Of a DNA stretch of 64,000 bases, positions 1 through 62,477 are shown piece by piece. The position numbers and the translations under genes are program-made. The notes below the pieces were generated by a model that saw nothing but the letters and a program-made list of their open reading frames with translations, ran no database searches and was not told the DNA's origin. Positions within the stretch are counted from its first letter, which is position 1; the number at the start of each line of letters is the position of its first letter. The stretch is from a virus (lineage: Duplodnaviria > Heunggongvirae > Uroviricota > Caudoviricetes): the IMG/VR virus record IMGVR_UViG_3300029590_000324. The stretch is one strand, 5' to 3'.

Positions 1-224
1 AAAGGCAGATGTTCTATCTGTAAGTCGTCTGTCAAATATATAAAAAGCTGTCCCGAGAATTACAGTTATGAGCTTATGCGGGAGATAGCCGAAGATATCT
101 GCAGGCGAAGAAAAAGAATGCCTCATGGAGATGTACTATCAAGGGAGTGGTAATTTGAGTTTTGTAATTGCAGTTATTGTGCTCATTGTAAATCTTATCG
201 AAACTGAGTAAGGAGGAAGTTATT

Positions 225-626
225 ATGGTAACAAGAGAACAGCAGCTCGCAGAAGCAATCAAGAGAATGAAGGCGCTGAAGCTTCATGAAAACACAATCG
301 AAGATTTAAAACAGGGGAGAGTAAACGTCAGCAAGCAGATGGGTGCTCTCTACTGGGCAAATGAAGAAGAGAAGGAGATAATTGCAAAGTTCGAAGCCAA
401 GCATAATGCCCTTGTCTATCACGCCATTTATACCCCGACACATTTCGGGCGCTGCTTTTCTATGCTGTTTGTCGGACAGTATGAAGATGAGTGGGAACTC
501 GACAGAAAGGACATTAGGAACTACACCCCGATCGCAATGGTCATAAATCTTGACGACGAATGGTGTTCCGATATGGGAAGCATCGGAGTGACCCCAATGT
601 TCGGCGGACTGATAAGAACTGCATAA
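225..626 (+). CDS. hypothetical protein (133 aa)
   Basis: ORF with AAGGAGG RBS 7 nt upstream; no recognisable motif. Confidence 0.5.
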   Translation: MVTREQQLAEAIKRMKALKLHENTIEDLKQGRVNVSKQMGALYWANEEEKEIIAKFEAKHNALVYHAIYTPTHFGRCFSMLFVGQYEDEWELDRKDIRNYTPIAMVINLDDEWCSDMGSIGVTPMFGGLIRTA

Positions 627-640
627 AAGGAGGACTGCAA

Positions 641-751
641 ATGAAGTATCTTGAAATAACGCAGACCGTTCAGCATTTCTGGGATGCGGAAATGAATGTG
701 CATATTGAAAAGGTATGCGTTGATGATGGTAACAGCGTTAACGGATTATGA
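641..751 (+). CDS. small hypothetical protein (36 aa)
   Basis: ATG preceded by AAGGAGG; tightly packed between neighbours. Confidence 0.3.
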   Translation: MKYLEITQTVQHFWDAEMNVHIEKVCVDDGNSVNGL

Positions 752-765
752 AAGGAGAAGTCATA

Positions 766-1011
766 ATGGAATTGATAGGTTATGCTGTAATTATTCGTAG
801 CGCTTACGACGGCATACTTCTTGTTCGGCTCTGCGATGATTATGATGCCGCAGTTAAAGAACTGCAGAAAGAATACTGCCTTGACTTATTGGAATATGAC
901 AACCTTCACATACCCGTAGATGAAACGTACGACGAAATGGAGAATCTGAAAACAATAAGTCTAACCGACGGTAACATCGTTACATATACAGTAGAGGAGG
1001 CTTATAAATGA
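766..1011 (+). CDS. hypothetical protein (81 aa)
   Basis: ATG 766 with GGAGAAG RBS; start overlaps previous stop. Confidence 0.45.
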   Translation: MELIGYAVIIRSAYDGILLVRLCDDYDAAVKELQKEYCLDLLEYDNLHIPVDETYDEMENLKTISLTDGNIVTYTVEEAYK

Positions 1012-1175
1012 AGAAGTACAGTGTAACACTTTTAGTAACTGGATATACAACGCTTCACATCGAAGCTGAAAATAAAGATGCAGCGGTGAAAGCGGCAGAG
1101 AAATCATTTTATAATAACTGTAATCTCTATCTTGACGATGCAGAAACAGATACTTGGGAGGTGGAAGAAGAATAA
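1008..1175 (+). CDS. small hypothetical protein (55 aa, MKKYSVTLLV...)
   Basis: Translated by hand; GAGGAGG RBS 7 nt upstream; ATG overlaps stop of previous ORF; absent from the ORF track because it is under 60 aa. Confidence 0.4.
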   Translation: MKKYSVTLLVTGYTTLHIEAENKDAAVKAAEKSFYNNCNLYLDDAETDTWEVEEE

Positions 1176-1291
1176 CTGTATATGATGACAAGGGGACAAC
1201 ATCATGCCGTCATGGAGATGACTGCGAATGTTATCTGTATGACGATGAACTGATAACTGTAATAAGAATAATCGGAAAGGAGAAGAGATAA

Positions 1292-2671
1292 ATGAAACCG
1301 AATAAACTTGAACGGTTTGTGAACGACCGAGAGCTGCATGAAAGAGCGCTTTCGCACATCGACCGCAAGGGACTCGATATGTGCGTGCTGTCCACGTTTT
1401 CGCAAGATGCAGCGTGGGCTCTTGCAGGCGACCTTATCGCTAATTGCAAAATCGAGTTCAAAGCCCCTGTAGAAATGTACATTGACAAGCTTACAGGCAA
1501 CTGGTTGACATTCGCCGAAGCAGAGAAGCGAAACTTTGAAGAAGTCCGCAAGCTTGCAGTTCTCGAAACGTTTGACCGAGTTCTGTGTAATACATTCTAT
1601 AAGATGTATTACGACGATTTTCACTACCTGATACATCCTAACTGTGTTTCTTACCGCAGGGGACTGTCAGCCGGCAAGACCGTAAAAGCTCTTGTCAGCG
1701 AGATGAACCGTAAGAAATGGTACAAAGGATACAAGCTTGACCTGAGCAAGTTCTTTGATACCGTAAATCGTGAAACGCTTGACAGAACACTCGATATTAT
1801 AACTCCCGATAAGGATTGTATCGATAACATAGTAATTAAACATTATCATGACGATACTATAATCGTAAACGGAAAACCCGAATACCGGTACAAGTCGCTC
1901 AGTCAGGGCAACCCTATTGCCTGTCTGCTGGCTGACCTGTGCCTGAGAGATATTGATGAAGCTGTAAGCAAGATGGATGTTATCTATTATCGCTATTCTG
2001 ACGATATCATAATCCTCGGCAGGGAAGCTGACCACGCCCTCGAAGTTATAAAGCAGATGCTCGAACCAAAGGGTGTAACTCTTAATCCTAAAAAGGTCAA
2101 AGCGTTGCAGGCAGATAAAGACTGGTTCGAGTTTCTGGGCTTTAAGATACGTGGCGACTTGATAACTGTGTCTGCGAAAACTCTCAGAGGTATCGAGCAG
2201 CATATAAAATCTGAAACGATACAGTGGAGCAGAGAACACAAAAGACTGGCTACCGAAGCAGAGACCAAGCGGATATGCAGGCGGCTCCAGAAGTATCTGT
2301 TCCTTGCATATGAAGAGAACAGCAACCAGTTCGGCATGTGTCAGTATCTGTTCGGAACCATTAACTGCAAACACGATATCGACATGATAGACAGGTATTG
2401 CAAAGACTGTTTAAGAGCAGTAATAACAGGTCGCAATAAGGTTTGGGGTCTCGGTTCTACAGATAATAACTCCAATTACACGATCCAGTTCCAGAAAGGA
2501 ATAAACGTTAAAGCTAACAGGGAAAGGACCGTGGCAGACGGAATAGATATGGTAAGGGCTGCCGGTTGGTACAGCCTTAATCATATGTACAAAGTCTATC
2601 ATACCGACCACGAACTCTGGCTGAGCGAGATAAACAAAATAAAAGGAGGTGTTATACATGACGCTGTATGA
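1292..2671 (+). CDS. reverse transcriptase (retron/group-II/UG-like lineage, not DGR type)
   Basis: RT motifs visible: SYRRGLSAGKTV (motif 1), KLDLSKFFDTV (motif 2/A), SQGNPIACLLADL (motif 4, QGxxxSP-like), YRYSDDIIILG (YxDD catalytic motif C), FEFLGF (motif 7); ~180 aa C-terminal extension with a Cys cluster. Confidence 0.85.
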   Translation: MKPNKLERFVNDRELHERALSHIDRKGLDMCVLSTFSQDAAWALAGDLIANCKIEFKAPVEMYIDKLTGNWLTFAEAEKRNFEEVRKLAVLETFDRVLCNTFYKMYYDDFHYLIHPNCVSYRRGLSAGKTVKALVSEMNRKKWYKGYKLDLSKFFDTVNRETLDRTLDIITPDKDCIDNIVIKHYHDDTIIVNGKPEYRYKSLSQGNPIACLLADLCLRDIDEAVSKMDVIYYRYSDDIIILGREADHALEVIKQMLEPKGVTLNPKKVKALQADKDWFEFLGFKIRGDLITVSAKTLRGIEQHIKSETIQWSREHKRLATEAETKRICRRLQKYLFLAYEENSNQFGMCQYLFGTINCKHDIDMIDRYCKDCLRAVITGRNKVWGLGSTDNNSNYTIQFQKGINVKANRERTVADGIDMVRAAGWYSLNHMYKVYHTDHELWLSEINKIKGGVIHDAV

Positions 2672-3101
2672 TGCGTTAATTGCAAAATCAGAATCGGGGC
2701 ATAAGCTCAGGTTCGATCTGGTCAAAAAGAATATCAGAATAGATAAGCGTGTCGTAATGGAAAACGGCAAGCTTGTAGCTGATATGATAGGCGGCGAAGT
2801 TATCGACTCGTTGGGGTCTCCTGTGTCCGGCTATGACGATCTGGTAACTCTTTACGAGAACTTTATTCATTCGTCACCGAGCAGTGAGAACAGCCGCAAG
2901 ACTTACCTGTTTAAACCTCTGTCTGCCGATGAGCTGAGCATGACCGACTTTTACCGTAACAATAGCCGAGACGTAATGCACGCAAAGCTTTGTGCCGCTA
3001 TTATAATCGGAAGTCTTAACGGTACCCTTAAATGGGAAACGCCCGGCTGGTTCCGTAAACTGACCGATAGGTTCATAATCTATCGCAGCTATATCCAGTA
3101 A
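2658..3101 (+). CDS. hypothetical protein translationally coupled to the RT (147 aa)
   Basis: GGAGG RBS lies inside the RT 3' end and the ATG overlaps the RT stop, so likely an RT accessory/effector; no known motif. Confidence 0.5.
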   Translation: MTLYDALIAKSESGHKLRFDLVKKNIRIDKRVVMENGKLVADMIGGEVIDSLGSPVSGYDDLVTLYENFIHSSPSSENSRKTYLFKPLSADELSMTDFYRNNSRDVMHAKLCAAIIIGSLNGTLKWETPGWFRKLTDRFIIYRSYIQ

Positions 3102-3144
3102 CCCGAAAACCATAAACCATACATATTAAAAGGAGAAATTTATT

Positions 3145-3978
3145 ATGACTAATAGCAATATGAACAACGCTAACCTTAACAACAGCAACCTCGATATGAA
3201 TGAGTTCGCAAAACTGGTGGCAAAGTCAATGCTCGATATGGCCAATACTCCAATCCCTACTGCCGACAATGATAACTCAGTTCCTGCACACGGTAAGTAT
3301 TTTGGCAAGACGATCTGCGGCGAAGTCTATAACCCCAGAACAACAAGACGTTGGATCTCCGCTCAGTTCATTAGACTTATGAGACAGGAGTGTGTCACCA
3401 CAAATATCAATCAGGTAATCGCAAATTTCTATACCTATAAGTACAGTATCCTCTATACCTGTAAGGAAGCTAAGCTGCTGGCTCACCTCAAAGATAACGA
3501 CCCCGTTGCATTTGAAGAGCGCAAGCATTTCTTTGATGTGAATAGCATCGCCGATATATTTATAAACTTCGCTAAGGAGTTCCAGCCCAGTCTTCAGAGT
3601 CTTATAAATACCGCTTGGTCATACTCAGACTTCGCTGTAATTGCAGAGGCTATTGAACTGGTAATTGCAAAGAGAGCGTTTGATATCCCCGAAGGCACAG
3701 GCATGAAGGGCGGCAGATACTTCAAGAACCACAAGCTTGCTAATGCGTTTATTCGCAGCTTCAAGAAGGCTGGTGCCTATTATACCTTAAAGAACTACAT
3801 TATGTTCGACAGAAGATTTGTCCTCCATTGGTTCGATGAAGTCTATACCAGAGAAAATGCTCTCAGAAAACTCAGACTTGAGATTCAGGCTCCTGACTAC
3901 TATTTTTATAAGGCACTTAAGGTTTCTATGGCGGAAAACTACATCAGCCTCAGCGATCCTTTTGCGAATATGGAATAA
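3145..3978 (+). CDS. hypothetical protein (277 aa), third gene of the RT operon
   Basis: AAAGGAG RBS; Asn-rich N terminus; no known motif. Confidence 0.5.
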   Translation: MTNSNMNNANLNNSNLDMNEFAKLVAKSMLDMANTPIPTADNDNSVPAHGKYFGKTICGEVYNPRTTRRWISAQFIRLMRQECVTTNINQVIANFYTYKYSILYTCKEAKLLAHLKDNDPVAFEERKHFFDVNSIADIFINFAKEFQPSLQSLINTAWSYSDFAVIAEAIELVIAKRAFDIPEGTGMKGGRYFKNHKLANAFIRSFKKAGAYYTLKNYIMFDRRFVLHWFDEVYTRENALRKLRLEIQAPDYYFYKALKVSMAENYISLSDPFANME

Positions 3979-4079
3979 AAAAATAACTGCAAACTCTCAG
4001 TCGGTAAATCTGTACATCATCCGGATTTCGCAGGTGTAGAAGGCTACTTTCGTCCCCTCAACACCTGCCAAATCACGGA

Positions 4080-5570
4080 TTCTTGATCTAAATGGTTTTA
4101 GTAAATCGCTGCGATTGAGAGTTATACTATTATAATTGTAACGGAGGAATACATGTGGTAACACGAAACAGTAATGGTGAATACGTTGTCAACGGCACAG
4201 TGCTCAGTTCTTACGATGCTTTCGATGTTTATAAATTCGTCAAGAGTGAATACAACGCAGAAGATATGGCGATGACTATCGAAGAAGAGTATGGTGCTCA
4301 GACAGAGGAAGAGGTAATTGCAAATCAAGAACTCTGGCATGACATACTGGATATGTATGAGGACTGCAGAAACAACGATGAGCAGTGGCATTACGACGCC
4401 GAATATGTTGTGTCCGAATTCCGCTCTGAGCTGGACGCTATAGCGGCAAATTACTAACTGCAAACCGACTTGTGAAAACAAAATTCAAGTCTGCAGCAAC
4501 ACGATCTCTCATTCTGGAGACCTCCAGAGTTCGAGATCGTTTATGCTGCCTCTTATCTAAATATCTTTAGTAAACATATGTTTCCACAAGCCGAATAATT
4601 CCTAATTCATAACACAAAATGCAATCAATAATCTCTCCCTCGGCGCTCAGTGATGCGTCACCCATCGCTTCACGCCGCTGTCGTGATTCTTCATATCTAA
4701 ATTACTTTAGCGACAATTTGGTGTTATGATTTCTTAATTCCCAGCGGCAACCTGTAAATTACGCATCTGGTCTGAAGCAAGAGTGTCAGGGATACTCCCT
4801 GAACTCTTCCTCAGACAAGATGGTATTATCTAAATCAATTTAGTGAACAACTGCTGTCGGGAATAGCCAATCTGATTTCTGTCCGTCCTAATGCAAACAT
4901 GTAATCCCTCAGATGAGAACCATCCAGCACACTGCTGGATGTTTCTCATCTCCGTGATACATATTATCTAAATGCTTTTAGCGAAAATTCGGCGGTCAGG
5001 AAATATATATCAATAATTGCAGTGCCTCAAATGCAGCAATGGTCATTGAGGAGCAACCGAAAAGTAGCCCGCTTTGCGGGCTAACTTCTCGGTGCGCCTC
5101 ACGACATTGTATCTAAAATCTTTTAGTGATATAATAGGTACTTCAATTAAATTCAGTAACCGTGATATCCAATATGCACTGCACCTTCGAAAGATGAGTC
5201 GATGACCCTCAATCAACTTCGTTGATTGAAGCGTCGATGACTCTTCTTTCAGAAGGTTCATATCTAAATTCCTTTAGCGATACCATGGATATTCCGGCCG
5301 CATAACCGAGTTTGGCAAACTGCATTTCGGGATCTTACACCGACGGGCACTATTCATACCTGACAAGTGCCCGACGTTTCAGATCCCTCATATCTAAACT
5401 GCTTTAGTAAATCGCCGCCAGGCTCGGTTCTGATAGCTGCAATCAGCATAATAACTTTGTACTATAGGAGGCGATCAGTCCAGTTACACTCCGCTTATCA
5501 GCGGGTGTCACGGACACTCACCTCCAATACATCTAAACCTTTGTAGAAAATATCTTGTTATGCTAATTGC
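4080..5570. repeat. array of 9 conserved palindromic ~25-bp motifs (consensus yATCTAAAtnnyTTTAGyrAa) spaced ~135 bp apart, alternating with unique GC-rich imperfect hairpins
   Basis: Motif copies near 4085, 4556, 4693, 4828, 4963, 5109, 5259, 5390 and 5528. Each unique spacer contains a long inverted repeat, e.g. ACGATCTC..GAGATCGT, AGCCCGCtttGCGGGCT, GGGATCT..AGATCCC. No ORF of 60 aa or more on the + strand between 4460 and 5600. Confidence 0.7.
4155..4457 (+). CDS. acidic hypothetical protein (100 aa, GTG start)
   Basis: GGAGG 7 nt upstream of GTG; lies between the first and second copies of the repeat motif. Confidence 0.4.
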   Translation: MVTRNSNGEYVVNGTVLSSYDAFDVYKFVKSEYNAEDMAMTIEEEYGAQTEEEVIANQELWHDILDMYEDCRNNDEQWHYDAEYVVSEFRSELDAIAANY

Positions 5571-5605
5571 AAAACAAAATAATTGTTTAATGGAGGTTAT
5601 AAATA

Positions 5606-5839
5606 ATGAAAAAGATAATAAAATTCACATTTATTGGAAACGACAGTTACAACAGACCCGTTTATAAAAACGAAAACGGAAAGTTATTTGTTGATGTTGA
5701 TCCTCGCAAAGATCATGAGCCAAAAATATGCACAAAATATCAAAATGCCTTTGATGGCGAACCTGATACACCGATAGACTGTATAACTGCATATTGCAAT
5801 GCAGAAATTGAATTTATACCCAAACGCATTACATGGTAA
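5606..5839 (+). CDS. hypothetical protein (77 aa)
   Basis: GGAGG RBS; first gene after the repeat array. Confidence 0.5.
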   Translation: MKKIIKFTFIGNDSYNRPVYKNENGKLFVDVDPRKDHEPKICTKYQNAFDGEPDTPIDCITAYCNAEIEFIPKRITW

Positions 5840-5956
5840 TTCAACCACTGATAAAAGTTTTTATGATTATCTGCTTAATAACGGTACTTCATTTGGAGTG
5901 GCTGTAAAAACGTATGCAGAGCATCTTCTCGACACGGCTAAAAGGGAGAAATAAAA

Positions 5957-6355
5957 ATGAATTATGATAAAACATATTATGAATACAACGAAAAGGAAAT
6001 CAGAGAGCTCCTGCTTTACAGGAAAGTCGTTGAAGTCAGAGGTAATACACTTGTTCTTGACAACGGAACAGAGCTTACCTTTGAAGGAAATGAAGGCTGC
6101 CCAGGCTGCGGCAACGGATGGTATTCCGTAACTGAACTTAACGAATGTGATAACGTCATTACGAACGTGGAGTTCGTTTGTGACAATGATACGAAAAACA
6201 AGTATGATGACGAAACATCGTACAAGATCTTCGTTTACGCCGAGGATAAGCATATTAAGCTTGCACAGATTGATGGAGACGATGGTAACGGATATTACGG
6301 CACAGGTTATACACTGTATGTAAAGTTTAATCAGTCATCGGATAAGGAGGATTAA
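5957..6355 (+). CDS. hypothetical protein (132 aa)
   Basis: AAGGGAG RBS; CPGCGNG motif. Confidence 0.5.
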   Translation: MNYDKTYYEYNEKEIRELLLYRKVVEVRGNTLVLDNGTELTFEGNEGCPGCGNGWYSVTELNECDNVITNVEFVCDNDTKNKYDDETSYKIFVYAEDKHIKLAQIDGDDGNGYYGTGYTLYVKFNQSSDKED

Positions 6356-6357
6356 AA

Positions 6358-6531
6358 ATGAAGCGAGCTTACATAGAAGACCGGTATGGTAACTGCGTTT
6401 GCGAACTTGAACCATACCTTGACGATGATGGAGAGCTGCTGGGCTGGTCAACGCCCAGCGAATACTTCATGCCCTGCGTAGTCGATGAGGGAGATACCTT
6501 CACAGTTATAGTAAAGGAAGTGGCAACATGA
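6358..6531 (+). CDS. small hypothetical protein (57 aa, MKRAYIEDRYG...)
   Basis: Translated by hand; AAGGAGG RBS; under the 60-aa track threshold. Confidence 0.4.
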   Translation: MKRAYIEDRYGNCVCELEPYLDDDGELLGWSTPSEYFMPCVVDEGDTFTVIVKEVAT

Positions 6532-6812
6532 TAAAAGAGTATCACCTTCATCTTGACAAAGACGGCAAAGACTGTTTTACAACCTATCTTGAGACAGTAA
6601 CAGCTATTGATAACGGTAATTCAGAAACTGTAATTCATTCAACTCAGCCAATATTTCTCACGTTTCGTGACGCTAAAGAATTGTATGTACATCTCAATGG
6701 CGAAATTCATCAGATAACACTGGGCAACTGTGTTGGAACTAATCGAGAAATTCGAGAGGGGCATGCAATAGATAAAATGTTAATTTCCGGAGAGTTTGAA
6801 TGGTTTAAATAA
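6528..6812 (+). CDS. hypothetical protein (94 aa)
   Basis: ATGA start/stop overlap with upstream ORF. Confidence 0.45.
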   Translation: MIKEYHLHLDKDGKDCFTTYLETVTAIDNGNSETVIHSTQPIFLTFRDAKELYVHLNGEIHQITLGNCVGTNREIREGHAIDKMLISGEFEWFK

Positions 6813-6825
6813 AGGGGGAATAATT

Positions 6826-7017
6826 GTGAGAGTAAGATATCTGACAATTCAAAAAGGGGAGACCCATCATATCTCCGAGTATCCAAACTTTCATAAGAGC
6901 GGAAGCGTTGAGGGTATGAAAAAGCTGTACTACGGCAAAGACGCACTTCTTGTACGGTGCGGAAGTTACATCTATAACGTAACGTCAAATCCCCGGATAT
7001 ACCATGATGCCAAATAA
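6826..7017 (+). CDS. hypothetical protein (63 aa, GTG start)
   Basis: AGGGGGAA RBS then GTG. Confidence 0.35.
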   Translation: MRVRYLTIQKGETHHISEYPNFHKSGSVEGMKKLYYGKDALLVRCGSYIYNVTSNPRIYHDAK

Positions 7018-7037
7018 TACATAATGGAGGAATGATT

Positions 7038-7415
7038 ATGGTCTGCGAATGGACAGGCAGTTACCTGTATCAGCCCGACACAGCGAACAAGAACGACTAT
7101 GATGTAGTTTGTGATGCGATAATTGATTATGTGAAAACCTATGGTGGAGAGCATAATCTCAGTATTACAACGTCGGAAGCTGAAGGCTGGGAAGTAAACG
7201 CAAAACCTATAAAGGCAAAGCAGTATAACATCGTGATCGACGGTAAGACTGTACCGATTGAAAAAATTTCCGAGGAAATAATAGCTTATTATGAAAGCTA
7301 TATGGATGACGAGGCTTCTAACTTCGGCAAGAATGCCTATTTTATTGGTGAGCCTTGGAGCGAAGAAGACCTCGAAATTTTCACAAGAGAAAACATGATA
7401 GAATACTGGAGCTAA
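7038..7415 (+). CDS. hypothetical protein (125 aa)
   Basis: GGAGG 7 nt upstream of ATG 7038. Confidence 0.5.
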   Translation: MVCEWTGSYLYQPDTANKNDYDVVCDAIIDYVKTYGGEHNLSITTSEAEGWEVNAKPIKAKQYNIVIDGKTVPIEKISEEIIAYYESYMDDEASNFGKNAYFIGEPWSEEDLEIFTRENMIEYWS

Positions 7416-7445
7416 CAGGATATTTGGAATTTGGAGGTAACAATT

Positions 7446-8045
7446 ATGGCTAACATTTGCTCTACACAGATAAGATTTTTTGGAAATGATGATGCACTTA
7501 CGGATTTTTTCAACAGGATCGAGCACGCTATTTCAGATGAAGCACACCCTGATATGAGCTACTGCGAAAGACGCAGCTTCCGCAACATCGCCAATGAATT
7601 CGGAATCGATCCTGATAAGGTTTCATTAAGAGGAGATATCGAATATGACAGGGATTGCGCAACAATATATACTGAAACCGCATGGACGCCTCGCCTTGGT
7701 ATATGGAGTGCGATAATTGCAAAATGCTATACCAAAGATGACGAGCAGCTCATTTCATTCAGCTGGTGCGCCGAGGAGTTCGGCTGCGATATCTACTGCA
7801 CAAACGACATGAATGAATTTGGCGACATGGCTTATTGTATTGACTATAATATAGGCAGCGATGCAGATTACCTCTACGGCGCCACAGAAGAAGAGGTGCT
7901 CAAAGAGGTTAACAGAGTTTTTGAAAAAGCAGGACTTGAGCCTGTCAAGTCTCTTGCGGAAGCGGAAGTGGCAGTTGAGGTCAATGAAGACTGGTTTATG
8001 TCAGTTCACAAGCTTGAACTGTTTGATACCTGCGATTTTGATTAA
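7446..8045 (+). CDS. hypothetical protein, paralogue family member A (199 aa)
   Basis: Shares CSTxIxFxGN, FxDLTD and ETAW[TR]P motifs with ORF 8592-9245. Confidence 0.55.
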   Translation: MANICSTQIRFFGNDDALTDFFNRIEHAISDEAHPDMSYCERRSFRNIANEFGIDPDKVSLRGDIEYDRDCATIYTETAWTPRLGIWSAIIAKCYTKDDEQLISFSWCAEEFGCDIYCTNDMNEFGDMAYCIDYNIGSDADYLYGATEEEVLKEVNRVFEKAGLEPVKSLAEAEVAVEVNEDWFMSVHKLELFDTCDFD

Positions 8046-18532: not shown

Positions 18533-18608
18533 GAGTCATTAGCTCAGTCGGTAGAGCAGTAGTCTTTTAAACTATTGGTCTGGGGTTCAAATCCCCAATG
18601 GCTCACCA
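18533..18608 (+). tRNA. tRNA-Lys (anticodon TTT)
   Basis: Cloverleaf folded by hand: acceptor GAGTCAT/ATGGCTC, D arm GCTC..GAGC, anticodon stem GTAGT/ACTAT with loop CTTTTAA, T arm TGGGGTTCAAATCCCCA, encoded CCA. Confidence 0.75.
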
Positions 18609-18690
18609 AATATATGTTTTTTATACTATTATTCATTGGTGCGAAAACATATTGGATATTTTACAATTTAAAAATTAAGGAGGAGTCATC

Positions 18691-19347
18691 ATGACCAACG
18701 AAAAAATGACAATCACAAAGGCACTTTCCGAGCTGAAGGTGCTCGGTAACAGAATCACAGCAGAGATTCGCAGTGCGACATTCTGTAACGTAAGCAAGCA
18801 TACAATGCGCACGCTAAACGGCAAAAATATCACTGACGTAAAGGCAGAGATGCAGGGCAGCTATGATAAAATAGTCGCTCTCATCAACAGGAATAATGCC
18901 ATCAAGAAAGCAGTGAATAAGGCAAACGCTTCCACAATCGTATCTATCGGTGGAGAGCAAATGACTGTCGCCGAAGCTATTTATATGAAGCAGACGGGTA
19001 TTGATTATATGAAGGCTCTGCTCAATACCATGACAACTCAATATACAAATACACAGAGCCTGCTCCAGAATAATAATGGAGAAAAGTTAACAAGGGCTTG
19101 TGAGGCCTATATCGTTAGCCTTTATGGAACAAACAGCAGCAATAACACTATTTCCAGCGAAATGGTGGAGACCATAAATGCGGCAAGAGCGAAATATATT
19201 GATGAGAATACTTTTGATCTCATCGAAGGTATTGATACAAAAAAAGCAATCGAAGATCTGAAGAATAAGATCGACGCTTTCGAAGCTGAGGTGGATGCAG
19301 CCATTACAGTGGCAAATGCAACCACCGAAATTGAAATCAGTTACTGA
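18691..19347 (+). CDS. hypothetical protein (218 aa)
   Basis: AAGGAGGAG RBS; perfect hairpin TGATTAAgTTAATCA directly at the stop codon. Confidence 0.55.
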   Translation: MTNEKMTITKALSELKVLGNRITAEIRSATFCNVSKHTMRTLNGKNITDVKAEMQGSYDKIVALINRNNAIKKAVNKANASTIVSIGGEQMTVAEAIYMKQTGIDYMKALLNTMTTQYTNTQSLLQNNNGEKLTRACEAYIVSLYGTNSSNNTISSEMVETINAARAKYIDENTFDLIEGIDTKKAIEDLKNKIDAFEAEVDAAITVANATTEIEISY

Positions 19348-19504
19348 TTAAGTTAATCATCCATCGTCAACCGAAAATACTTAACTGGTTTCAACTGAAC
19401 ATCAACAGTCTAAAATGATGAACAAAACAATTTGAAACTGCAAAAGCTTTCAAATGCTAAAGATATTATTCAGATAAGAATATCGAGTATTTATGATGTT
19501 TTCG

Positions 19505-19680
19505 GGCAGAGTTTAAAGTTCGAATAATAGCTGAAAGTTTAAAATTCAAAGCTTAATTGTTTTAAACATTAAAGTTCAGAATTTATGGTAGCAGACGTGC
19601 GTACTTGATGGCAGACTTGCTGCACTTCAAAGTTCAAATTGTAAATTGTAAATCATAAAGTTCATAGAAATCCCCGATAT
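19505..19680. repeat. five direct copies of AAAGTTCA(R)AAT-like motif in a non-coding AT-rich region
   Basis: TTAAAGTTCGAATAAT, GAAAGTTTAAAATTCAAAG, TTAAAGTTCAGAATTTAT, TTCAAAGTTCAAATTG, ATAAAGTTCATAGAAAT; also GCAGAC(G/T)TGC repeated twice. Confidence 0.5.
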
Positions 19681-19819
19681 AGGTTAAAGCGGCGAATCCA
19701 TCGGCTGTGTGTGATCCTCGGGGCTGGTTGATGGTGGATAAACATTTATATACCCCCTACGATGGCAAGCTCCTCTTAGCGTTGAAGATCTCATGTGCAG
19801 TACGTCAAGCTGCACGAAT

Positions 19820-19915
19820 GCAACAATAAGCCTAATTTGGTAAGGCAGGAGGTTGCTAACCTCTGAGTAATCATCGTATGATGGTGTTCGAGTTCGAGTC
19901 TCGGTTGTTGCGCCA
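19820..19915 (+). tRNA. tRNA-Ser (anticodon GCT), class II with long variable arm
   Basis: Acceptor GCAACAA/TTGTTGC perfect; 3-bp D stem; anticodon stem GGAGG/CCTCT with loop TTGCTAA; 23-nt variable arm; T arm TCGAG-TTCGAGT-CTCGG; discriminator G; encoded CCA. Confidence 0.7.
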
Positions 19916-20106
19916 ACGGAATTAGTGTAATTAAAAAAAATAAATAATTGGTAAAATGAAATCTGAAGCGAACCACTGTGCAAGTACCTTTATTCATGAG
20001 ATTGGGGAAAAGTAGTAGCAAAGAGCCAATTACATAACGCCGGTCTTCCACCCCGGAATTGTTGGTTATACTCCAATCACTAAATCCTTTTTTATTTATT
20101 ATTTGA

Positions 20107-20182
20107 TGGGATATCGCCAAGAGGGAAGGCAGTAGATTTTGACTCTACCATTCCGTGTGTTCGAATCACACTATCCCAACCA
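20107..20182 (+). tRNA. tRNA-Gln (anticodon TTG)
   Basis: Acceptor TGGGATA/TATCCCA (U1-A72); anticodon stem GTAGA/TCTAC with loop TTTTGAC; T arm GTGTG-TTCGAAT-CACAC; encoded CCA. Confidence 0.65.
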
Positions 20183-20931
20183 ATATCCATACCCTCTTAG
20201 TCAAGGAGTTAAGACGTCGTTAAAACGAAGGCATTGGGTGCAAATCCCGTAGATGGATATGGATACAACAATAAAGCACCCTACACCTTAACATAATCTC
20301 GGAGCAGTACGCATAATCGAAGGTCGGTCAGGGTGCATATATGAGCCGTTGCTTGGGGTAAGTACCCGAGCGGCTCACCAATGATACCGATAAGCAGATG
20401 CAGACTGAAGCTTGTAGGTGAAAACTCAGTGGCCAAGGTCATCTGTGCTGCATAACAGATGATAGCAAGGGGTAAAACGTGGCGGAGATTATCTTAGTGT
20501 CACCCTTGTAACTGTAAAATCCACATCAGCTTGCGGTATGGCGATATAGCTGTCTGAGTGGTTGAGGTTCGGACATTACCGATTCCGATATAAGACCGCA
20601 CGGGTGCTCCGCTGCCCATTATGATTTAAACGCGGCCTTTAGTTCCTGATAAGATCGACTCCCTGACGAGGGATAGGTCTGGCAAGTTTAAATACAGCTT
20701 CGGCTTATTGGAGACGCCTACGGGTGCAGAAGCCAGAACTCACAAGATAACGTTAAAACAGAAATGTGAAAAACAGGTTTTGCAGGGGTTCCTTAATACC
20801 GCCGTATAGAGGGTGTGATGAGCAAGGATCCAGCTCGTTGCGCAACATAAGAAATGTTGTCACGCCGTAAGACCCGAATCGGCAGATGTCGAAGCTGGAC
20901 ATCGTGGCAGCCCGGAAAGACGGGCACATAA

Positions 20932-21008
20932 CTCCCAGTAGTCCAGAGGCAGGAGACAAGGGACTTAAAATCCCTACAGGATGGGTTCGAATCCCATCTG
21001 GGAGACCA
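20932..21008 (+). tRNA. tRNA with anticodon TAA (Leu by anticodon) but class I architecture with a short variable loop
   Basis: Acceptor CTCCCAG/CTGGGAG; anticodon stem AGGGA/TCCCT with loop CTTAAAA; 5-nt variable loop; T arm ATGGG-TTCGAAT-CCCAT; discriminator A; encoded CCA. Confidence 0.6.
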
Positions 21009-21012
21009 ACAT

Positions 21013-21095
21013 GCGGGTGTGGTGAAATTGGCAGACACGATAGACTTAGGATCTATTGCGCAAGCGTGCAGGTTCAAGTCCTGTCACCCGCACCA
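21013..21095 (+). tRNA. tRNA-Leu (anticodon TAG), long variable arm
   Basis: Acceptor GCGGGTG/CACCCGC; anticodon stem ATAGA/TCTAT with loop CTTAGGA; variable hairpin TGCGCAAGCGTG; T arm GCAGG-TTCAAGT-CCTGT; discriminator A; encoded CCA. Confidence 0.7.
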
Positions 21096-21142
21096 GATGT
21101 TAATAATAGCTAACGTCAGTTGCTATATTATTAACGAAATAT

Positions 21143-21227
21143 GCGAGAGTGCTGGAATAGGCAGACAGAGCAGTCTCAAAAACTGCTGCAAGAATGCGTG
21201 TGGGTTCGAAGCCCATCTCTCGTACCA
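21143..21227 (+). tRNA. tRNA-Leu (anticodon CAA), long variable arm
   Basis: Acceptor GCGAGAG/CTCTCGT; anticodon stem GCAGT/ACTGC with loop CTCAAAA; long variable arm; T arm GTGGG-TTCGAAG-CCCAT; discriminator A; encoded CCA. Confidence 0.7.
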
Positions 21228-23702: not shown

Positions 23703-24527
23703 ATGATTTACATAAATAATGCACCTTTTGGAGATAAAAGTTTTCCTAATGGTGAAACCATTTTTGATATGGGAACTTATTATGTCAAGGATGCAGTAAA
23801 TGAAATCAAGCTTGTATATGAATCGGACGCTGATATCTTTAAGCTCATTGTGGCCAAGAAGTGTCTTGATGAACAGTCAAAGGAAAACAGAGTTGATTAC
23901 GGTTGGGATGAAGCAATCATAACTCTGACCATTGCATATATGCCATATTCAAGAATGGATAGGCAGATGTCTTCAATGGCGTTCAGCCTCAGATATGTTG
24001 CCGATATCATCAATTCTCTTAATTTTGATTCGGTAACAATACTTACACCTCACTCCAATGTAACTCCGGCACTTATTAACAATGTCAGAACCATATACGA
24101 TATCGGCGTTAATGAGGCATATAAATACAGTTCCCCCGATTACGTATTCTATCCCGACAACGGAGCCTGCAAGTCGTTTGGAGAACATCTCAAATATACT
24201 AATTACTTTTACGGTAACAAGAAGCGTGAGCTTTCAACCGGAAAGATTGAAAAGTATGAGCTGGTTAATGCCCCCGATATTAAGGACAAAAACATTCTGA
24301 TAATCGATGACCTTTGTGTTAAGGGCGGCACATTTATTCTTGCAGCTCAGGCTCTTAAAGCGGCAGGTGCAGCCAAGGTAGATTTGTTTGTAACTCATCT
24401 TGAAAAGGCTGTGTATAAAGGAATACTGCTCACGACAGACTGGATTGATCATATCTATACAGTCAATACACTGGAAATCCCCATTGAAAACGACAAAATA
24501 ACAGAAATAAGAGGTAATTTCATATGA
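23703..24527 (+). CDS. ribose-phosphate pyrophosphokinase (Prs)-family protein; candidate ADP-ribose pyrophosphokinase (Adps-like)
   Basis: IAYMPYSRMDRQ resembles Prs IPYFGYARQDRR; PRPP-binding loop IIDDLCVKGGT resembles VLVDDMIDTAGT; stop overlaps the NAMPT-like gene start. Confidence 0.6.
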   Translation: MIYINNAPFGDKSFPNGETIFDMGTYYVKDAVNEIKLVYESDADIFKLIVAKKCLDEQSKENRVDYGWDEAIITLTIAYMPYSRMDRQMSSMAFSLRYVADIINSLNFDSVTILTPHSNVTPALINNVRTIYDIGVNEAYKYSSPDYVFYPDNGACKSFGEHLKYTNYFYGNKKRELSTGKIEKYELVNAPDIKDKNILIIDDLCVKGGTFILAAQALKAAGAAKVDLFVTHLEKAVYKGILLTTDWIDHIYTVNTLEIPIENDKITEIRGNFI

Positions 24528-25990
24528 ATGAAATAATGCCAATGCTTCTTTGTGATTTTTACAAAGAGTGTATGATGGTTCAGCAGAGCCCTAAGCTCAC
24601 TAAGCTCGTATCCTATATGACACCAAGAATGTCCAGAGTACACGATGACAAACTCGTCTTCTTCGGACTTCAGGCGTTTATCGAGAAGTATCTTGTGGAA
24701 TATTTCAATAACGAATTTTTCAATAAGCCTGTCGATGAGGTCTGCGCCGAGTATGAAAGAGTTCTCGGCAGCACTCTCGGCAAGGGTACATATGATACCG
24801 CAAAAATCAGAGCTCTTCACGAGCTGGGCTATTTGCCTGTTAAGATATCGGCACTTCCCGAGGGAACCCGTGTCCCCATGCACGTTCCTATGCTGGAAAT
24901 AAGCAGCACACACCCTGATTTTATATGGGTCGGACAGTTCCTTGAAAGTCTTATGAGTGCTTCACTCTGGCATCCAATGGTGTCTGCAAATGTGGGTTAT
25001 TGGTATCGTCAGATCGTTGATAAGTTCTACGACATCAGCGTTGAAGATGACGTGCCCAGAGCCAAGGCTCTCGGAGACTTTTCATTCAGAGGTCAGCATA
25101 GTCTTGAAAGTGCGACTGCCTCTTCTGCCGGTTGGTGTACTTCGTTTCTGAATACAGCGACAGTACCCGCAATTCCTTGGCTGGAAAAATATTATCACTG
25201 CGATTGTACCAAGGAGCCCGTAGCTTACGGGGCGGTATCAACCGAACATTCAGTGATGACCAGCAACTTCTCTATCGACGGCGATGAGATTACATTTCTC
25301 CGTAAGCTGCTGACTGAGCTTTATCCCAATAACAGTTTCAGTGTAGTATGCGATTCTTATGATTACTGGAATGTAGTCAATAATATTTTGCCTCAGCTAA
25401 AGCCTGAAATTATGGCTCACAACGGCTGTATGCTGATAAGAGGGGACAGCGGAGACCCTGTTGAGATAGTGACCGAAACTGTGTTTGCACTCTGGGAAGA
25501 ATTCGGCGGAACAGTCAACAGCAAGGGTTATAAGGTACTCGACCCTCACGTTAAGGCGATTTACGGGGACAGTATCACCGTTCAGCGCTGTCAGCAGATA
25601 TACCAGAGGCTCATTGACAACGGTTTTGCCTGCAATAATGTAATCCTCGGTGTCGGCAGCTTCTCAATGATGTGCGTTGAAGAGGACAATATGCTCAAGC
25701 CTTTTACCCGTGATACATATTCAATAGCTATTAAGGCGACTTATGGTGAGGTAGATGGTAAGCCCATAATGATTTTTAAGAATCCCAAGACAGATACGGG
25801 ATTCAAGAAGTCCCAGAAGGGTATGTGCTTTATCTATAAAGAGCACGGCGAGATAAAGTATCAGGACGGCTTTACAGCTGAGACAGTTCCTGTCAATGGC
25901 TTGTTCCGCACAGTGTTCGAGGATGGTAAATGCTATAATACTCAGACGCTTGCTGACGTTCGTAATACGCTTTACGAAGGAGGATTCTGA
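24524..25990 (+). CDS. nicotinamide phosphoribosyltransferase (NAMPT/NadV) family enzyme; candidate Namat-like
   Basis: Several blocks align with human NAMPT: ALPEGTRVP~AVPEGFVIP, LGDFSFRGQHSLESA~LHDFGYRGVSSQETA, SVVCDSYDYWN~SVVSDSYDIYN, LIRGDSGDP~IIRPDSGNP, NSKGYKVLDPHVKAIYGDSI~[20 protein letters not shown]. Confidence 0.85.
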   Translation: MNEIMPMLLCDFYKECMMVQQSPKLTKLVSYMTPRMSRVHDDKLVFFGLQAFIEKYLVEYFNNEFFNKPVDEVCAEYERVLGSTLGKGTYDTAKIRALHELGYLPVKISALPEGTRVPMHVPMLEISSTHPDFIWVGQFLESLMSASLWHPMVSANVGYWYRQIVDKFYDISVEDDVPRAKALGDFSFRGQHSLESATASSAGWCTSFLNTATVPAIPWLEKYYHCDCTKEPVAYGAVSTEHSVMTSNFSIDGDEITFLRKLLTELYPNNSFSVVCDSYDYWNVVNNILPQLKPEIMAHNGCMLIRGDSGDPVEIVTETVFALWEEFGGTVNSKGYKVLDPHVKAIYGDSITVQRCQQIYQRLIDNGFACNNVILGVGSFSMMCVEEDNMLKPFTRDTYSIAIKATYGEVDGKPIMIFKNPKTDTGFKKSQKGMCFIYKEHGEIKYQDGFTAETVPVNGLFRTVFEDGKCYNTQTLADVRNTLYEGGF

Positions 25991-61738: not shown

Positions 61739-62356
61739 GTCACACCCTCACGGGTGTGTGAGTTGAAATCATTGTTCATTTGACCCTCATAATAATTTGT
61801 AAGAAGTCACACCCTCACGGGTGTGTGAGTTGAAATCCTGCAGCGGTGTCCCTTTCCTCCGATATCGTGTGGTCACACCCTCACGGGTGTGTGAGTTGAA
61901 ATCTTGATAGCACGGACGCATTCGGTCATGCGTTCGTCACACCCTCACGGGTGTGTGAGTTGAAATTCCCCAAGTTACGGAATGTGTCCGTAAATAGTCA
62001 GGTCACACCCTCACGGGTGTGTGAGTTGAAATTCCTGCCGCTTCTGCTCCTGCCGATATTCTTCAAGTCACACCCTCACGGGTGTGTGAGTTGAAATATA
62101 TATTTAGTGATGTACCGTGAGACTTTCTCATGTCACACCCTCACGGGTGTGTGAGTTGAAATATAAAAGAGCGTAAGATTGATGCAGCGTTAGTTAGTCA
62201 CACCCTCACGGGTGTGTGAGTTGAAATAAGGTTGACAGGTATTTCGGACTGGAAAAATATGTCACACCCTCACGGGTGCGTGAGTTGAAATTTCATCAGT
62301 TCACCCGTTTCCTTCGCAAGTGGATGGTCACACCCTCACGGGTATGTACTGAAAAT
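61739..62356 (+). CRISPR. CRISPR array of 10 repeats and 9 spacers with type I-C-like repeat GTCACACCCTCACGGGTGTGTGAGTTGAAAT
   Basis: 31-nt repeats at 61739, 61806, 61872, 61936, 62002, 62067, 62132, 62197, 62261 (variant GTGCG) and a degenerate terminal repeat at 62327. Spacers are unique and 33-36 nt. The AT-rich leader at 61400-61738 contains a partial repeat remnant GAGTTGAAAT at 61693. No cas genes in the window. Confidence 0.9.
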
Positions 62357-62477
62357 TATGACAATTTCCAGATAGCTGATTTGCACCCATTACGCCCAAA
62401 ATACAAAGCTAAAGCCAATCACAATCATATCTTAATAAATAAAAACAGCGCAGAAACTTTCGCTTCTGCGCCGAACA

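What the first reader, a model, noticed from the sequence alone, without database searches (positions are those of the whole stretch)
1292..3978. Reverse transcriptase with two translationally coupled downstream genes: candidate uncharacterised RT-based system
The 459-aa RT has canonical motifs (YSDD, QGNPIA..L.DL, KLDLSKFFD) of the retron/group-II/UG lineage, not the DGR signature (I/LGxxxSQ). No group II ribozyme or maturase/En domain is visible. No TR/VR pair was found by eye. The RT is followed by a 147-aa gene whose start overlaps the RT stop and by a 277-aa gene, neither with known domains. This layout resembles defence-associated RT (DRT/UG) or retron modules where effectors are co-transcribed, but here it sits inside a phage early region. 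A 1.5-kb structured non-coding array lies 100 bp further downstream.
Basis: partly seen in the sequence, partly recalled or inferred. Interest (0 to 1): 0.75.

Follow-up and report, generated by a model that had tools for sequence, protein, structure and literature searches.

The report
Gut-phage UG27 reverse transcriptase with hairpin array
This is a real but already catalogued phage reverse-transcriptase system (group UG27: the enzyme, two partner genes and a tandem array of nine hairpin-forming non-coding units), whose biological role is still not established in any paper I could read.

Summary
Three co-oriented genes are present: RT 1292-2671, a 147-aa gene at 2658-3101 that overlaps the RT stop, and a 277-aa gene at 3145-3978. 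A structured non-coding array follows.

It is not a new system. The RT is a full-length match to the UG27 model (E 2e-84). The two downstream genes match the UG27-associated families RTas346 and RTas337. Mestre et al. 2022 described this trio in more than 1,400 human-gut phage genomes, with a putative ncRNA and no known function.

The new point here is that the downstream array belongs to the system. It has nine units. Each unit is a long hairpin followed by ATCTAAA-N4-TTTAG. All nine motifs lie on the + strand and occur nowhere else in the 64 kb.

Distant UG27 phages carry related motif-plus-hairpin arrays, usually between the RT and gene 2, often with one further unit after gene 3. In this clade the whole array has moved downstream.

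Hairpins keep pairing through compensatory changes. The tips of units 1, 4 and 6 diverge about tenfold faster than the genes.

The likely mechanism is inferred: the RT copies array units into cDNA. DGR, group II intron and retron membership were tested and not met.

A September 2026 preprint that I could not open appears to cover UG27 ncRNA arrays and cDNA products.

The parts
1292..2671 (+). Reverse transcriptase, group UG27 (Class 2 UG/Abi), 459 aa; catalytic YSDD at residues 235-238
   Evidence: ORF. Pfam RVT_1 E 6.8e-21. PADLOC RT_UG27 E 2.2e-84, residues 79-446 on profile positions 65-416 of 420; next best UG26 1.1e-46 and UG17 3.5e-27. Invariant D150, F155, D156, Q205, G206, Y235, D237 and D238 across 38 homologues.
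2658..3101 (+). Accessory gene 2 (cluster 346 / RTas346), 147 aa, basic (pI 8.6); start overlaps the RT stop by 14 nt
   Evidence: PADLOC RTas346 E 1.2e-17. ATG 2658 with an AAGGAGG Shine-Dalgarno sequence. jackhmmer finds a homologue downstream of the RT in 77 sources. It is fused to the C-terminus of the RT in L016, L049, L050, L060 and L073. pI.
3145..3978 (+). Accessory gene 3 (cluster 337 / RTas337), 277 aa, basic (pI 8.9), all-alpha; lacks the N-terminal CPxCG zinc-ribbon that most homologues carry
   Evidence: PADLOC RTas337 E 5.1e-19. Family alignment; weak zinc-ribbon Pfam hits in other members. AlphaFold2 model pLDDT 72, pTM 0.72, helical over residues 70-270. No informative fold match.
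3979..4109 (+). ncRNA unit 1: hairpin 4020-4079, motif ATCTAAATGGTTTTAG at 4086-4101. Its place, about 110 nt after the gene-3 stop, matches the solitary post-gene-3 unit of most other UG27 loci
   Evidence: (z -4.68). Post-gene-3 unit in the major clade. The distal hairpin is 67-72% identical between relatives whose genes are about 97% identical.
4155..4457 (+). 100-aa acidic ORF (pI 4.05) inserted between units 1 and 2; found only in this clade; probably not a core part of the system
   Evidence: (homologues only in L001-L004). Starts with ATG in the relatives.
4458..5554 (+). ncRNA units 2-9. Hairpins: 4493-4549, 4641-4677 (plus 4683-4694), 4760-4825, 4899-4962, 5036-5110, 5180-5260, 5329-5387, 5467-5525. 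Motifs: 4555-4570, 4695-4710, 4828-4843, 4966-4981, 5111-5126, 5262-5277, 5392-5407, 5531-5546. A TGCAA(A/T)C-like word lies 10-20 nt before most hairpins
   Evidence: Motif statistics. Folds and z-scores (-2.5 for unit 3, otherwise -5.6 to -8.1). 16 base pairs changed on both sides among three close relatives, against 6.4 +/- 2.0 in shuffles and 1-4 in slid controls. Related motif-plus-hairpin arrays in other UG27 loci.

Best explanation
This is a UG27-type phage reverse-transcriptase system with four parts: the RT, accessory protein 346, accessory protein 337, and a tandem array of nine non-coding units.

**Shown**
- The family assignment of all three proteins.
- Their strict co-occurrence and fixed order in hundreds of gut-phage contigs.
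- The array's motif-plus-hairpin anatomy.
- Selection on hairpin pairing.
- Related arrays next to UG27 genes in distantly related phages.

**Inferred mechanism**
1. The array is transcribed rightward with the genes. Everything here is on the + strand, and a + strand ORF lies inside the array.
2. The RT probably acts with protein 346 as a subunit, because the two are fused in some phages.
3. The RT recognises the conserved single-stranded motif at the 3' foot of each hairpin.
4. It reverse-transcribes the adjacent unit, giving a set of distinct hairpin-containing cDNAs. This is functionally retron-like.
5. Protein 337 (basic, helical, usually with a zinc ribbon) binds or acts on the RNA or cDNA.

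The biological role is most likely in phage-host conflict or host takeover rather than classical host defence. It is not established.
For: **Identity**
- RT_UG27 E 2.2e-84, RTas346 E 1.2e-17, RTas337 E 5.1e-19.
- Mestre et al. 2022 (PMC9226505) describe UG27 with clusters 346 and 337. They report a structured intergenic ncRNA in 1,447 dereplicated gut viral genomes and no defence-island enrichment.

**Linkage**
- Same gene order in 77 of 82 RT-seeded sources (81 fetched loci plus the window) and 69 of 80 gene-3-seeded loci.
- RT-346 fusions in 5 loci.

**The array is part of the system**
- 9 motifs against 0.97 expected, all on the + strand and only in 4086-5546.
- Hairpin z-scores down to -8.1.
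- Compensatory changes: 16 pairs against 6.4 in shuffles.
- Arrays with a 140-190 nt period and related motifs lie beside the RT in other clades:
  - L005: ATATCTAAA-N4-TWAAG.
  - L013: CATCGTAAA..TGAAG.
  - Major clade: CATCGAA-N4-TAAAG-NAATGTGCCG.
- L005 (RT 39% identical) has units both between RT and gene 2 and after gene 3.
- A uniform motif-plus-hairpin detector finds 412 hits on the RT strand against 37 on the other strand over 171 sources.

**Context**
- About 145-kb phage with DnaB, a PolIII-alpha-type polymerase, ligases, NrdD, NAMPT and tRNAs.
- Rare in bacterial genomes: 9 hits, the better-scoring ones from Clostridia MAGs.

**Literature hint**
- An unreadable September 2026 preprint uses 'UG27' 74 times, 'ncRNA array' 10 times and 'cDNA product' 12 times.
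Against: - No cDNA, transcript or interaction data exist for this locus. Template use, priming mode and product are inferred by analogy with retrons, DRT2 and DRT9.
- The array sits in a different place here (after gene 3) from most UG27 loci (between RT and gene 2).
- A few clades showed no array with my crude detectors (L053, L060, L063, L090, L110 and others). A separate nhmmer search did find two units after gene 3 in L060.
- The small CTAAA/TTTAG stem possible in this clade is not conserved in relatives and is broken in two units of L001 and L004. How the motif is recognised is therefore unknown.
- The hint that the cDNA-sense strand folds better is largely compositional. The raw count is 111 of 140 units, but shuffled controls differ by 2.0-2.6 kcal/mol of the 3.9-4.2 observed, and z-score differences are not significant.
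- Proteins 346 and 337 gave no functional clue.
Confidence: 0.7

Rival explanations
1. The same molecular system, but serving as a phage-carried defence or superinfection-exclusion module. Like DRT2, DRT9 or retrons, the RT-ncRNA complex would sense a competing phage and trigger growth arrest or block the competitor.
For: The RT belongs to the UG/Abi family, whose characterised members are antiphage (PMC9226505; PADLOC lists all these models under DRT). Phages do carry defence systems against rivals. A CRISPR array lies in the same window at 61739-62357.
Against: Mestre et al. found no defence-island enrichment for UG27 and predicted a non-defence role. The system sits in large phages with no integrase seen nearby. 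It is almost absent from 185,579 bacterial species genomes (9 hits). Neither accessory protein has a recognisable toxin or effector domain.
Confidence: 0.15
2. The functional form of the array is RNA only, or an antisense transcript. The hairpin units would act as protein-binding decoys, small RNAs or scaffolds, and the RT would bind them without copying them, or would copy something else.
For: Selection on pairing is equally compatible with RNA hairpins. Raw folding energies favour the minus-sense strand, which an antisense RNA would also explain. DRT9-type systems use the ncRNA largely as a scaffold (my own knowledge, not tested here).
Against: All flanking genes and the ORF inside the array are on the + strand with short gaps. 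No excess of promoter-like sites on either strand. The catalytic residues of the RT are invariant across the family, which argues that polymerisation matters. The strand asymmetry largely disappears after composition control.
Confidence: 0.1
3. The array is unrelated to the RT. It would be a run of regulatory hairpins (terminators, promoters or RNA-processing sites) of the phage early region that merely lies next to the RT operon.
For: It lies outside the three genes, contains a protein-coding ORF, and in this clade no non-coding gap separates the RT from gene 2.
Against: Related motif-plus-hairpin arrays, in the same orientation, accompany UG27 genes in phages whose RTs are only 30-40% identical. 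The position of unit 1 after gene 3 is conserved. No enrichment of sigma-70 promoter-like or intrinsic-terminator-like sites. Hairpins are not followed by T runs.
Confidence: 0.03
4. A diversity-generating retroelement, a group II intron or a retron.
For: RVT_1 domain. The closest solved structures by sequence are group II intron RTs (E 9e-29), a Cas6-RT-Cas1 fusion, and retron and DRT RTs.
Against: - **DGR:** no TR/VR-like repeat pair anywhere in the 64 kb.
- **Group II intron:** no ribozyme domains in Rfam at gathering score or at E <= 1.
- **Curated NCBIfam cut-offs all missed**: group II RT/maturase 95.7 bits against 300; retron St85 43 against 235; Drt2 49.5 against 390; Drt3a 58.8 against 200.
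- **Best model:** UG27 wins by more than 120 bits.
Confidence: 0.02

Closest known systems
UG27 system of Mestre et al. 2022 (Class 2 UG/Abi RT with clusters 346 and 337 and an intergenic structured ncRNA, in human-gut phages)
   Same: All three proteins match the family models. The gene order is the same. The setting is a large gut-type phage with a likely Firmicutes host. A structured non-coding element with long stem-loops is adjacent.
   Different: - Here there is no non-coding gap between the RT and gene 346. The whole nine-unit array lies after gene 337.
- A clade-specific acidic ORF sits inside the array.
- Protein 337 lacks the N-terminal zinc ribbon.
- The motif is ATCTAAA-N4-TTTAG rather than CATCGAA-N4-TAAAG-NAATGTGCCG.
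- The 2022 paper describes 'three long stem-loops', not a repeat array.
Retrons (RT, msr-msd ncRNA and effector)
   Same: A small RT co-transcribed with accessory proteins and an ncRNA whose main feature is a long, sequence-variable hairpin kept by compensatory change. The proposed product is a hairpin cDNA.
   Different: - The RT is below the retron model cut-offs.
- The conserved element is 3' of the hairpin, not a 5' msr.
- I did not look systematically for a1/a2 inverted repeats or a branching G.
- There are nine different units in tandem instead of one.
- The system is phage-encoded, and no recognisable effector domain is present.
DRT2 (UG2), DRT9 (UG28) and DRT3 (UG3+UG8): UG/Abi RTs that work with a dedicated ncRNA
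   Same: Same RT superfamily; ncRNA encoded next to the RT and required for function.
   Different: - Scores are far below those families' cut-offs.
- Those ncRNAs are single copies with defined short templates.
- They are host defence systems found in defence islands.
- UG27 has two extra dedicated proteins and a multi-unit array.
CRISPR arrays and phage solitary repeat units
   Same: Short conserved words alternate with variable segments in one orientation. Some variable parts turn over fast between close relatives.
   Different: - The period is 130-190 nt.
- The variable part is itself a self-complementary hairpin.
- Units are positionally conserved between phages rather than acquired at one end.
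- The variable parts match nothing else in the window.
- A true CRISPR array is present elsewhere in the window (61739-62357) and looks quite different.

Membership tests
UG27 (UG/Abi Class 2) system | RT scores best against the UG27 profile, over its full length | tested here: met
   RT_UG27 E 2.2e-84, 281.8 bits, profile positions 65-416 of 420; runner-up UG26 at 157.3 bits.
UG27 (UG/Abi Class 2) system | Adjacent cluster-346 gene | tested here: met
   RTas346 E 1.2e-17, covering profile positions 2-130 of 147. Homologues lie next to the RT in 77 sources.
UG27 (UG/Abi Class 2) system | Adjacent cluster-337 gene | tested here: met
   RTas337 E 5.1e-19. jackhmmer links it to 77 sources, E down to 5e-111 within the family. 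This copy lacks the usual N-terminal zinc ribbon.
UG27 (UG/Abi Class 2) system | No additional known domain fused to the RT (Class 2) | tested here: met
   Only RVT_1 passes the Pfam cut-off.
UG27 (UG/Abi Class 2) system | Structured ncRNA with long stem-loops in the non-coding stretch of the operon | tested here: met
   Nine motif-plus-hairpin units share motif and architecture with the arrays of other UG27 loci. The position differs: after gene 337 instead of between the RT and gene 346. I could not compare with the published covariance model because the supplement is not held.
UG27 (UG/Abi Class 2) system | Encoded in gut viral genomes, not in defence islands | tested here: met
   IMG/VR contigs of 111-146 kb are 97-99% identical in the RT. 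Phage replication genes fill the window. Only 9 hits in 185,579 species genomes.
Diversity-generating retroelement | Template repeat and variable repeat near the RT | tested here: not met
   No such pair in 1-8000. The variable parts of the array match nothing else in the window. Self-BLAST of the 64 kb finds only the CRISPR array.
Group II intron | Ribozyme domains flanking the RT ORF | tested here: not met
   Rfam at gathering score finds only tRNAs. At E <= 1 over 600-6000 it finds nothing relevant.
Group II intron | RT/maturase above the curated family score | tested here: not met
   TIGR04416 scores 95.7 bits against a cut-off of 300.
Retron | Retron-type RT above the curated score | tested here: not met
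   Retron St85 model scores 43 bits against a cut-off of 235. PADLOC retron RT models are weaker than E 1e-11.
Retron | msr-msd RNA with flanking a1/a2 repeats and a branching G; 2'-5' linked msDNA | not testable with these tools
   No Rfam retron match. Branching and msDNA need experiments.
Defence-associated RT (DRT) | Demonstrated or island-inferred antiphage function | not testable with these tools
   Published analysis found no defence enrichment for UG27.

The most novel reading that the evidence does not exclude
Each of the nine positionally conserved units templates its own hairpin DNA, so the phage makes a small library of msDNA-like molecules during infection. The distal stems of some hairpins (units 1, 4 and 6) are replaced about ten times faster than the surrounding genes while staying paired. 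That would mark them as specificity determinants or decoys in an arms race with host immunity. The move of the array to the 3' end of the operon, and the acidic ORF inserted in it, would be clade-specific elaborations. Part of this may already be reported in the 2026 preprint I could not read.
Probability: 0.25. Interest if true: 0.65.

Novelty: new member of a known kind. Interest (0 to 1): 0.38.

Why it matters
UG27 is the one large UG/Abi reverse-transcriptase group that lives in phages rather than in bacterial defence islands. It is abundant in human-gut viromes. The only paper I could read gives it no function.

This locus is a compact, well-delimited example: 5.1 kb (751-5877), three genes and nine units. 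It shows that the non-coding array belongs to the system even when it has moved relative to the genes. That pins down what must be cloned to test the system.

If the units are templates, the system would be a natural multi-template cDNA generator, of interest for retron-style DNA-writing tools. If the fast-changing hairpin tips are targets or decoys, they would point to the host factor involved.

Tried and rejected
- **The 2026 'Minerva' preprint could not be read.** Three identifier forms failed. Only keyword counts were obtained.
- **Supplement of Mestre et al.** Not held.
- **Structure of gene 2.** AlphaFold2 with 3 sequences failed (pLDDT 35). Deeper alignments from fetched loci cannot be handed to the predictor.
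- **Gene 3 model.**
  - Foldseek against BFVD found nothing at E <= 0.001.
  - Profile searches against PDB sequences and Pfam found nothing.
- **RNAalifold on a MAFFT alignment of 60 units.** It returned no pairs because the variable hairpins misalign. I used per-unit folds and a three-genome alignment instead.
- **Idea that the module is a discrete mobile cassette.** Flanks looked unalignable. BLAST shows the relatives are collinear with indels, so the idea was rejected.
- **Idea that the CTAAA/TTTAG mini-stem is a snap-back primer.** It is not conserved in L005, L012, L013 or the major clade, and it is broken in two units of close relatives. Rejected.
- **Idea that the post-motif ATGTGCC pairs with the hairpin foot for template jumping.** It was not general across units. 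Rejected.
- **Strand-asymmetry test.**
  - The raw result favours the cDNA sense: 111 of 140 units, with a tRNA control pointing the opposite way.
  - Composition-matched shuffles explain most of it.
  - It is kept only as a weak hint.
- **Other negative scans.** Promoter and terminator scan showed no enrichment. TR/VR search was negative.
Full report
**1. Observation**

- Gene callers and close homologues start the second gene at ATG 2658 (147 aa). That start follows an AAGGAGG site and overlaps the RT stop by 14 nt.
- The third gene has its own ribosome-binding site after a 43-nt gap.
- The quoted RT motifs are present. Pfam sees only RVT_1 (E 6.8e-21) and nothing in genes 2 and 3.

**2. Identity**

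Against PADLOC models, the RT is a full-length match to RT_UG27 (E 2.2e-84, 281.8 bits). This is well ahead of UG26 (157.3 bits) and UG17.
- Gene 2 matches RTas346 (E 1.2e-17) and gene 3 matches RTas337 (E 5.1e-19).
- Curated NCBIfam models all fall far below their cut-offs:
  - group II RT/maturase: 95.7 against 300.
  - Drt3a: 58.8 against 200.
  - Drt2: 49.5 against 390.
  - retron St85: 43 against 235.
- Rfam finds only six tRNAs in the window and nothing in 600-6000 at E <= 1.
- No TR/VR-like repeat exists.
- No UG27 structure is in the PDB. The nearest chains are group II intron RTs.

**3. Literature**

Mestre et al. [quoted passage not shown]
- They found the complete trio in 1,447 dereplicated gut viral genomes, with Bacteroidetes and Firmicutes hosts.
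- They saw no defence-island enrichment.
- They predicted a conserved intergenic ncRNA 'with three long stem-loops'.
- They suggested an addiction or anti-defence role without evidence.

A preprint dated 2026-09-24 (10.64898/2026.09.22.753630) could not be opened. Full-text counts show 'UG27' 74 times, 'ncRNA array' 10, 'cDNA' 24, 'cDNA product' 12 and 'hairpin' 33. UG27 arrays and their cDNA products have probably been studied there.

**4. Synteny**

IMG/VR holds contigs of 111-146 kb whose RT is 97-99% identical to the window's. A profile scan found at least 386 stretches encoding relatives, of which 80 loci were kept.
- The order RT, gene 2, gene 3 holds in 77 of 82 RT-seeded sources (81 fetched loci plus the window).
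- It also holds in 69 of 80 loci seeded with gene 3. Most of the rest are cut contigs or have the RT beyond the 7-kb flank, because extra genes lie between the RT and gene 2.
- In five loci gene 2 is fused to the RT, which argues that the two proteins act together.
- Most loci have 0.5-1.45 kb of non-coding DNA between the RT and gene 2. The window's clade has none.

**5. The array**

In the window, ATCTAAA-N4-TTTAG (up to 1 mismatch) occurs nine times, against 0.97 expected. All copies are on the + strand, at 4086-5546.
- Each motif lies 1-8 nt downstream of a 55-80-nt imperfect hairpin.
- Eight hairpins have z-scores of -4.7 to -8.1, and unit 3 has -2.5.
- A TGCAA(A/T)C-like word precedes most hairpins.

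The non-coding gaps of other UG27 loci are also arrays, with periods of 140-190 nt and related motifs 3' of long hairpins:
- L013: CATCGTAAA..TGAAG, nine units.
- Major clade: CATCGAA-N4-TAAAG-NAATGTGCCG..TGAGAA, five to seven units.
- L010, L012 and L017: ATCGTAAA / ATCTAAA..TAAAG.

nhmmer found 276 motif copies in 51 loci. Most major-clade loci have one extra unit about 115 nt after the gene-3 stop. This is the same place as the window's unit 1.

L005 is the closest outgroup (RT 39% identical). It carries ATATCTAAA-N4-TWAAG units both between the RT and gene 2 and after gene 3, which bridges the two layouts.

A uniform detector finds 412 units on the RT strand against 37 on the other strand. 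A few clades gave no clear array with these crude methods.

**6. Evolution of the units**

The window and its relatives are collinear over 751-5877 at about 95-97% identity, with indels outside that block.
- Inside the array, divergence is concentrated in the distal stems of units 1, 4 and 6. Identity there is 67-78%, against about 97% in the genes.
- Over the nine hairpins, 16 pairs changed on both sides while staying paired. Column shuffles give 6.4 +/- 2.0 (0 of 500 reach 16), and slid controls give 1-4.
- Units are positionally conserved between phages, unlike CRISPR spacers.

**7. Accessory proteins**

Both are basic.
- Protein 337 gives a moderately confident all-helical model (pLDDT 72, pTM 0.72). 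It has no informative structural neighbour.
- Most homologues of protein 337 carry an N-terminal CPxCG zinc ribbon that this copy lacks.
- Protein 346 could not be modelled.
- Profile searches against PDB sequences found nothing.

**8. Context**

The window is a phage replication and nucleotide-metabolism region read almost entirely on the + strand.
- It encodes NAMPT, DnaB-type helicase, a PolIII-alpha-type polymerase, DNA ligase, PNK/RNA ligase, NrdD and six tRNAs. The polymerase is 39% identical to those of Bacillus Tsamsa-like phages.
- Strong Shine-Dalgarno sites and hits in Clostridia MAGs point to a Firmicutes gut host.

**9. Mechanism and its limits**

The best-supported reading is that the array is the RNA partner of the RT. 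The motif would be the recognition or initiation site, and the adjacent hairpin would be the template or scaffold. The co-occurrence is shown; the rest is inferred.
- I tested whether the selected structure is in the cDNA sense. Raw energies and G-U counts favour the minus sense in 111 of 140 units, and tRNAs behave the opposite way.
- Composition-matched shuffles account for 2.0-2.6 of the 3.9-4.2 kcal/mol difference. The z-scores no longer differ.
- This is therefore only a weak hint.

**10. Verdict**

The feature is real.
- The useful additions are that the downstream array is an integral, relocated part of the system, and that some hairpin tips evolve unusually fast.
- Function remains unknown in what I could read.

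Noticed in passing
window 61739-62357 (+): A CRISPR array: ten copies of the 31-nt repeat GTCACACCCTCACGGGTGTGTGAGTTGAAAT (the last is degenerate) with nine spacers of 33-36 nt. No cas gene was seen in the 1.6 kb left before the window ends. The neighbours are an SPFH/Band7 protein, an HTH_17 protein and a GDSL lipase, and GC rises to 0.45-0.50. The spacers match nothing in the window or in the 170 fetched loci.
   Followed up: partly
window 379, 1441, 2677, 3662, 4315, 5564, 7714, 9094 (+): The 10-mer TAATTGCAAA occurs 8 times (0.6 expected), always on the + strand and only in the first 9.1 kb. Most copies lie inside unrelated ORFs, including the RT and genes 2 and 3. The flanks are not conserved. 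ATTGCAAA occurs 18 times on + and 2 on -. It may be a strand-specific signal of the early region.
   Followed up: partly
window 4155-4457 (+): A 100-aa very acidic protein (pI 4.05; 24 D/E, 5 K/R) is encoded inside the array between units 1 and 2. It is conserved only in the window's own clade. The charge pattern resembles small DNA-mimic or anti-restriction proteins, which I did not test.
   Followed up: partly
window 18533-21227, 24524-25990, 44209-46407, 55327-57534: The phage also carries six tRNAs, a nicotinamide phosphoribosyltransferase, a polynucleotide kinase/RNA ligase fusion and an anaerobic ribonucleotide reductase. The first three are gene types known from other phages as counter-measures to tRNA-cleaving and NAD-depleting host immunity (that role is from my own knowledge).
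   Followed up: no
window 5878-7424: A 1.5-kb stretch with several small ORFs is present in the window but absent from relatives L001, L002 and L004. Those relatives instead have about 1.9 kb extra between window positions 660 and 751. This is a mosaic of small early genes around a conserved UG27 block.
   Followed up: partly
L016 962-2578; L049 5719-7503; L050 5773-7440; L060 5749-7458; L073 5797-7458: In these phages the RT and the cluster-346 protein are one fused ORF of 538-594 aa. In L060 the array lies after gene 3, as in the window.
   Followed up: partly
L094, L101-L123, L126, L128 (between RT and gene 2): Some UG27 clades have 2.4-5.2 kb with four to seven extra + strand ORFs (about 90-415 aa) inserted between the RT and cluster 346. 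These may be additional system components or cargo.
   Followed up: no
window 3001-6000: GC skew is slightly negative (-0.03 to -0.07) across gene 3 and the array, while nearly all the rest of the window is positive (+0.05 to +0.23). The array's + strand is therefore relatively C-rich and G-poor.
   Followed up: partly
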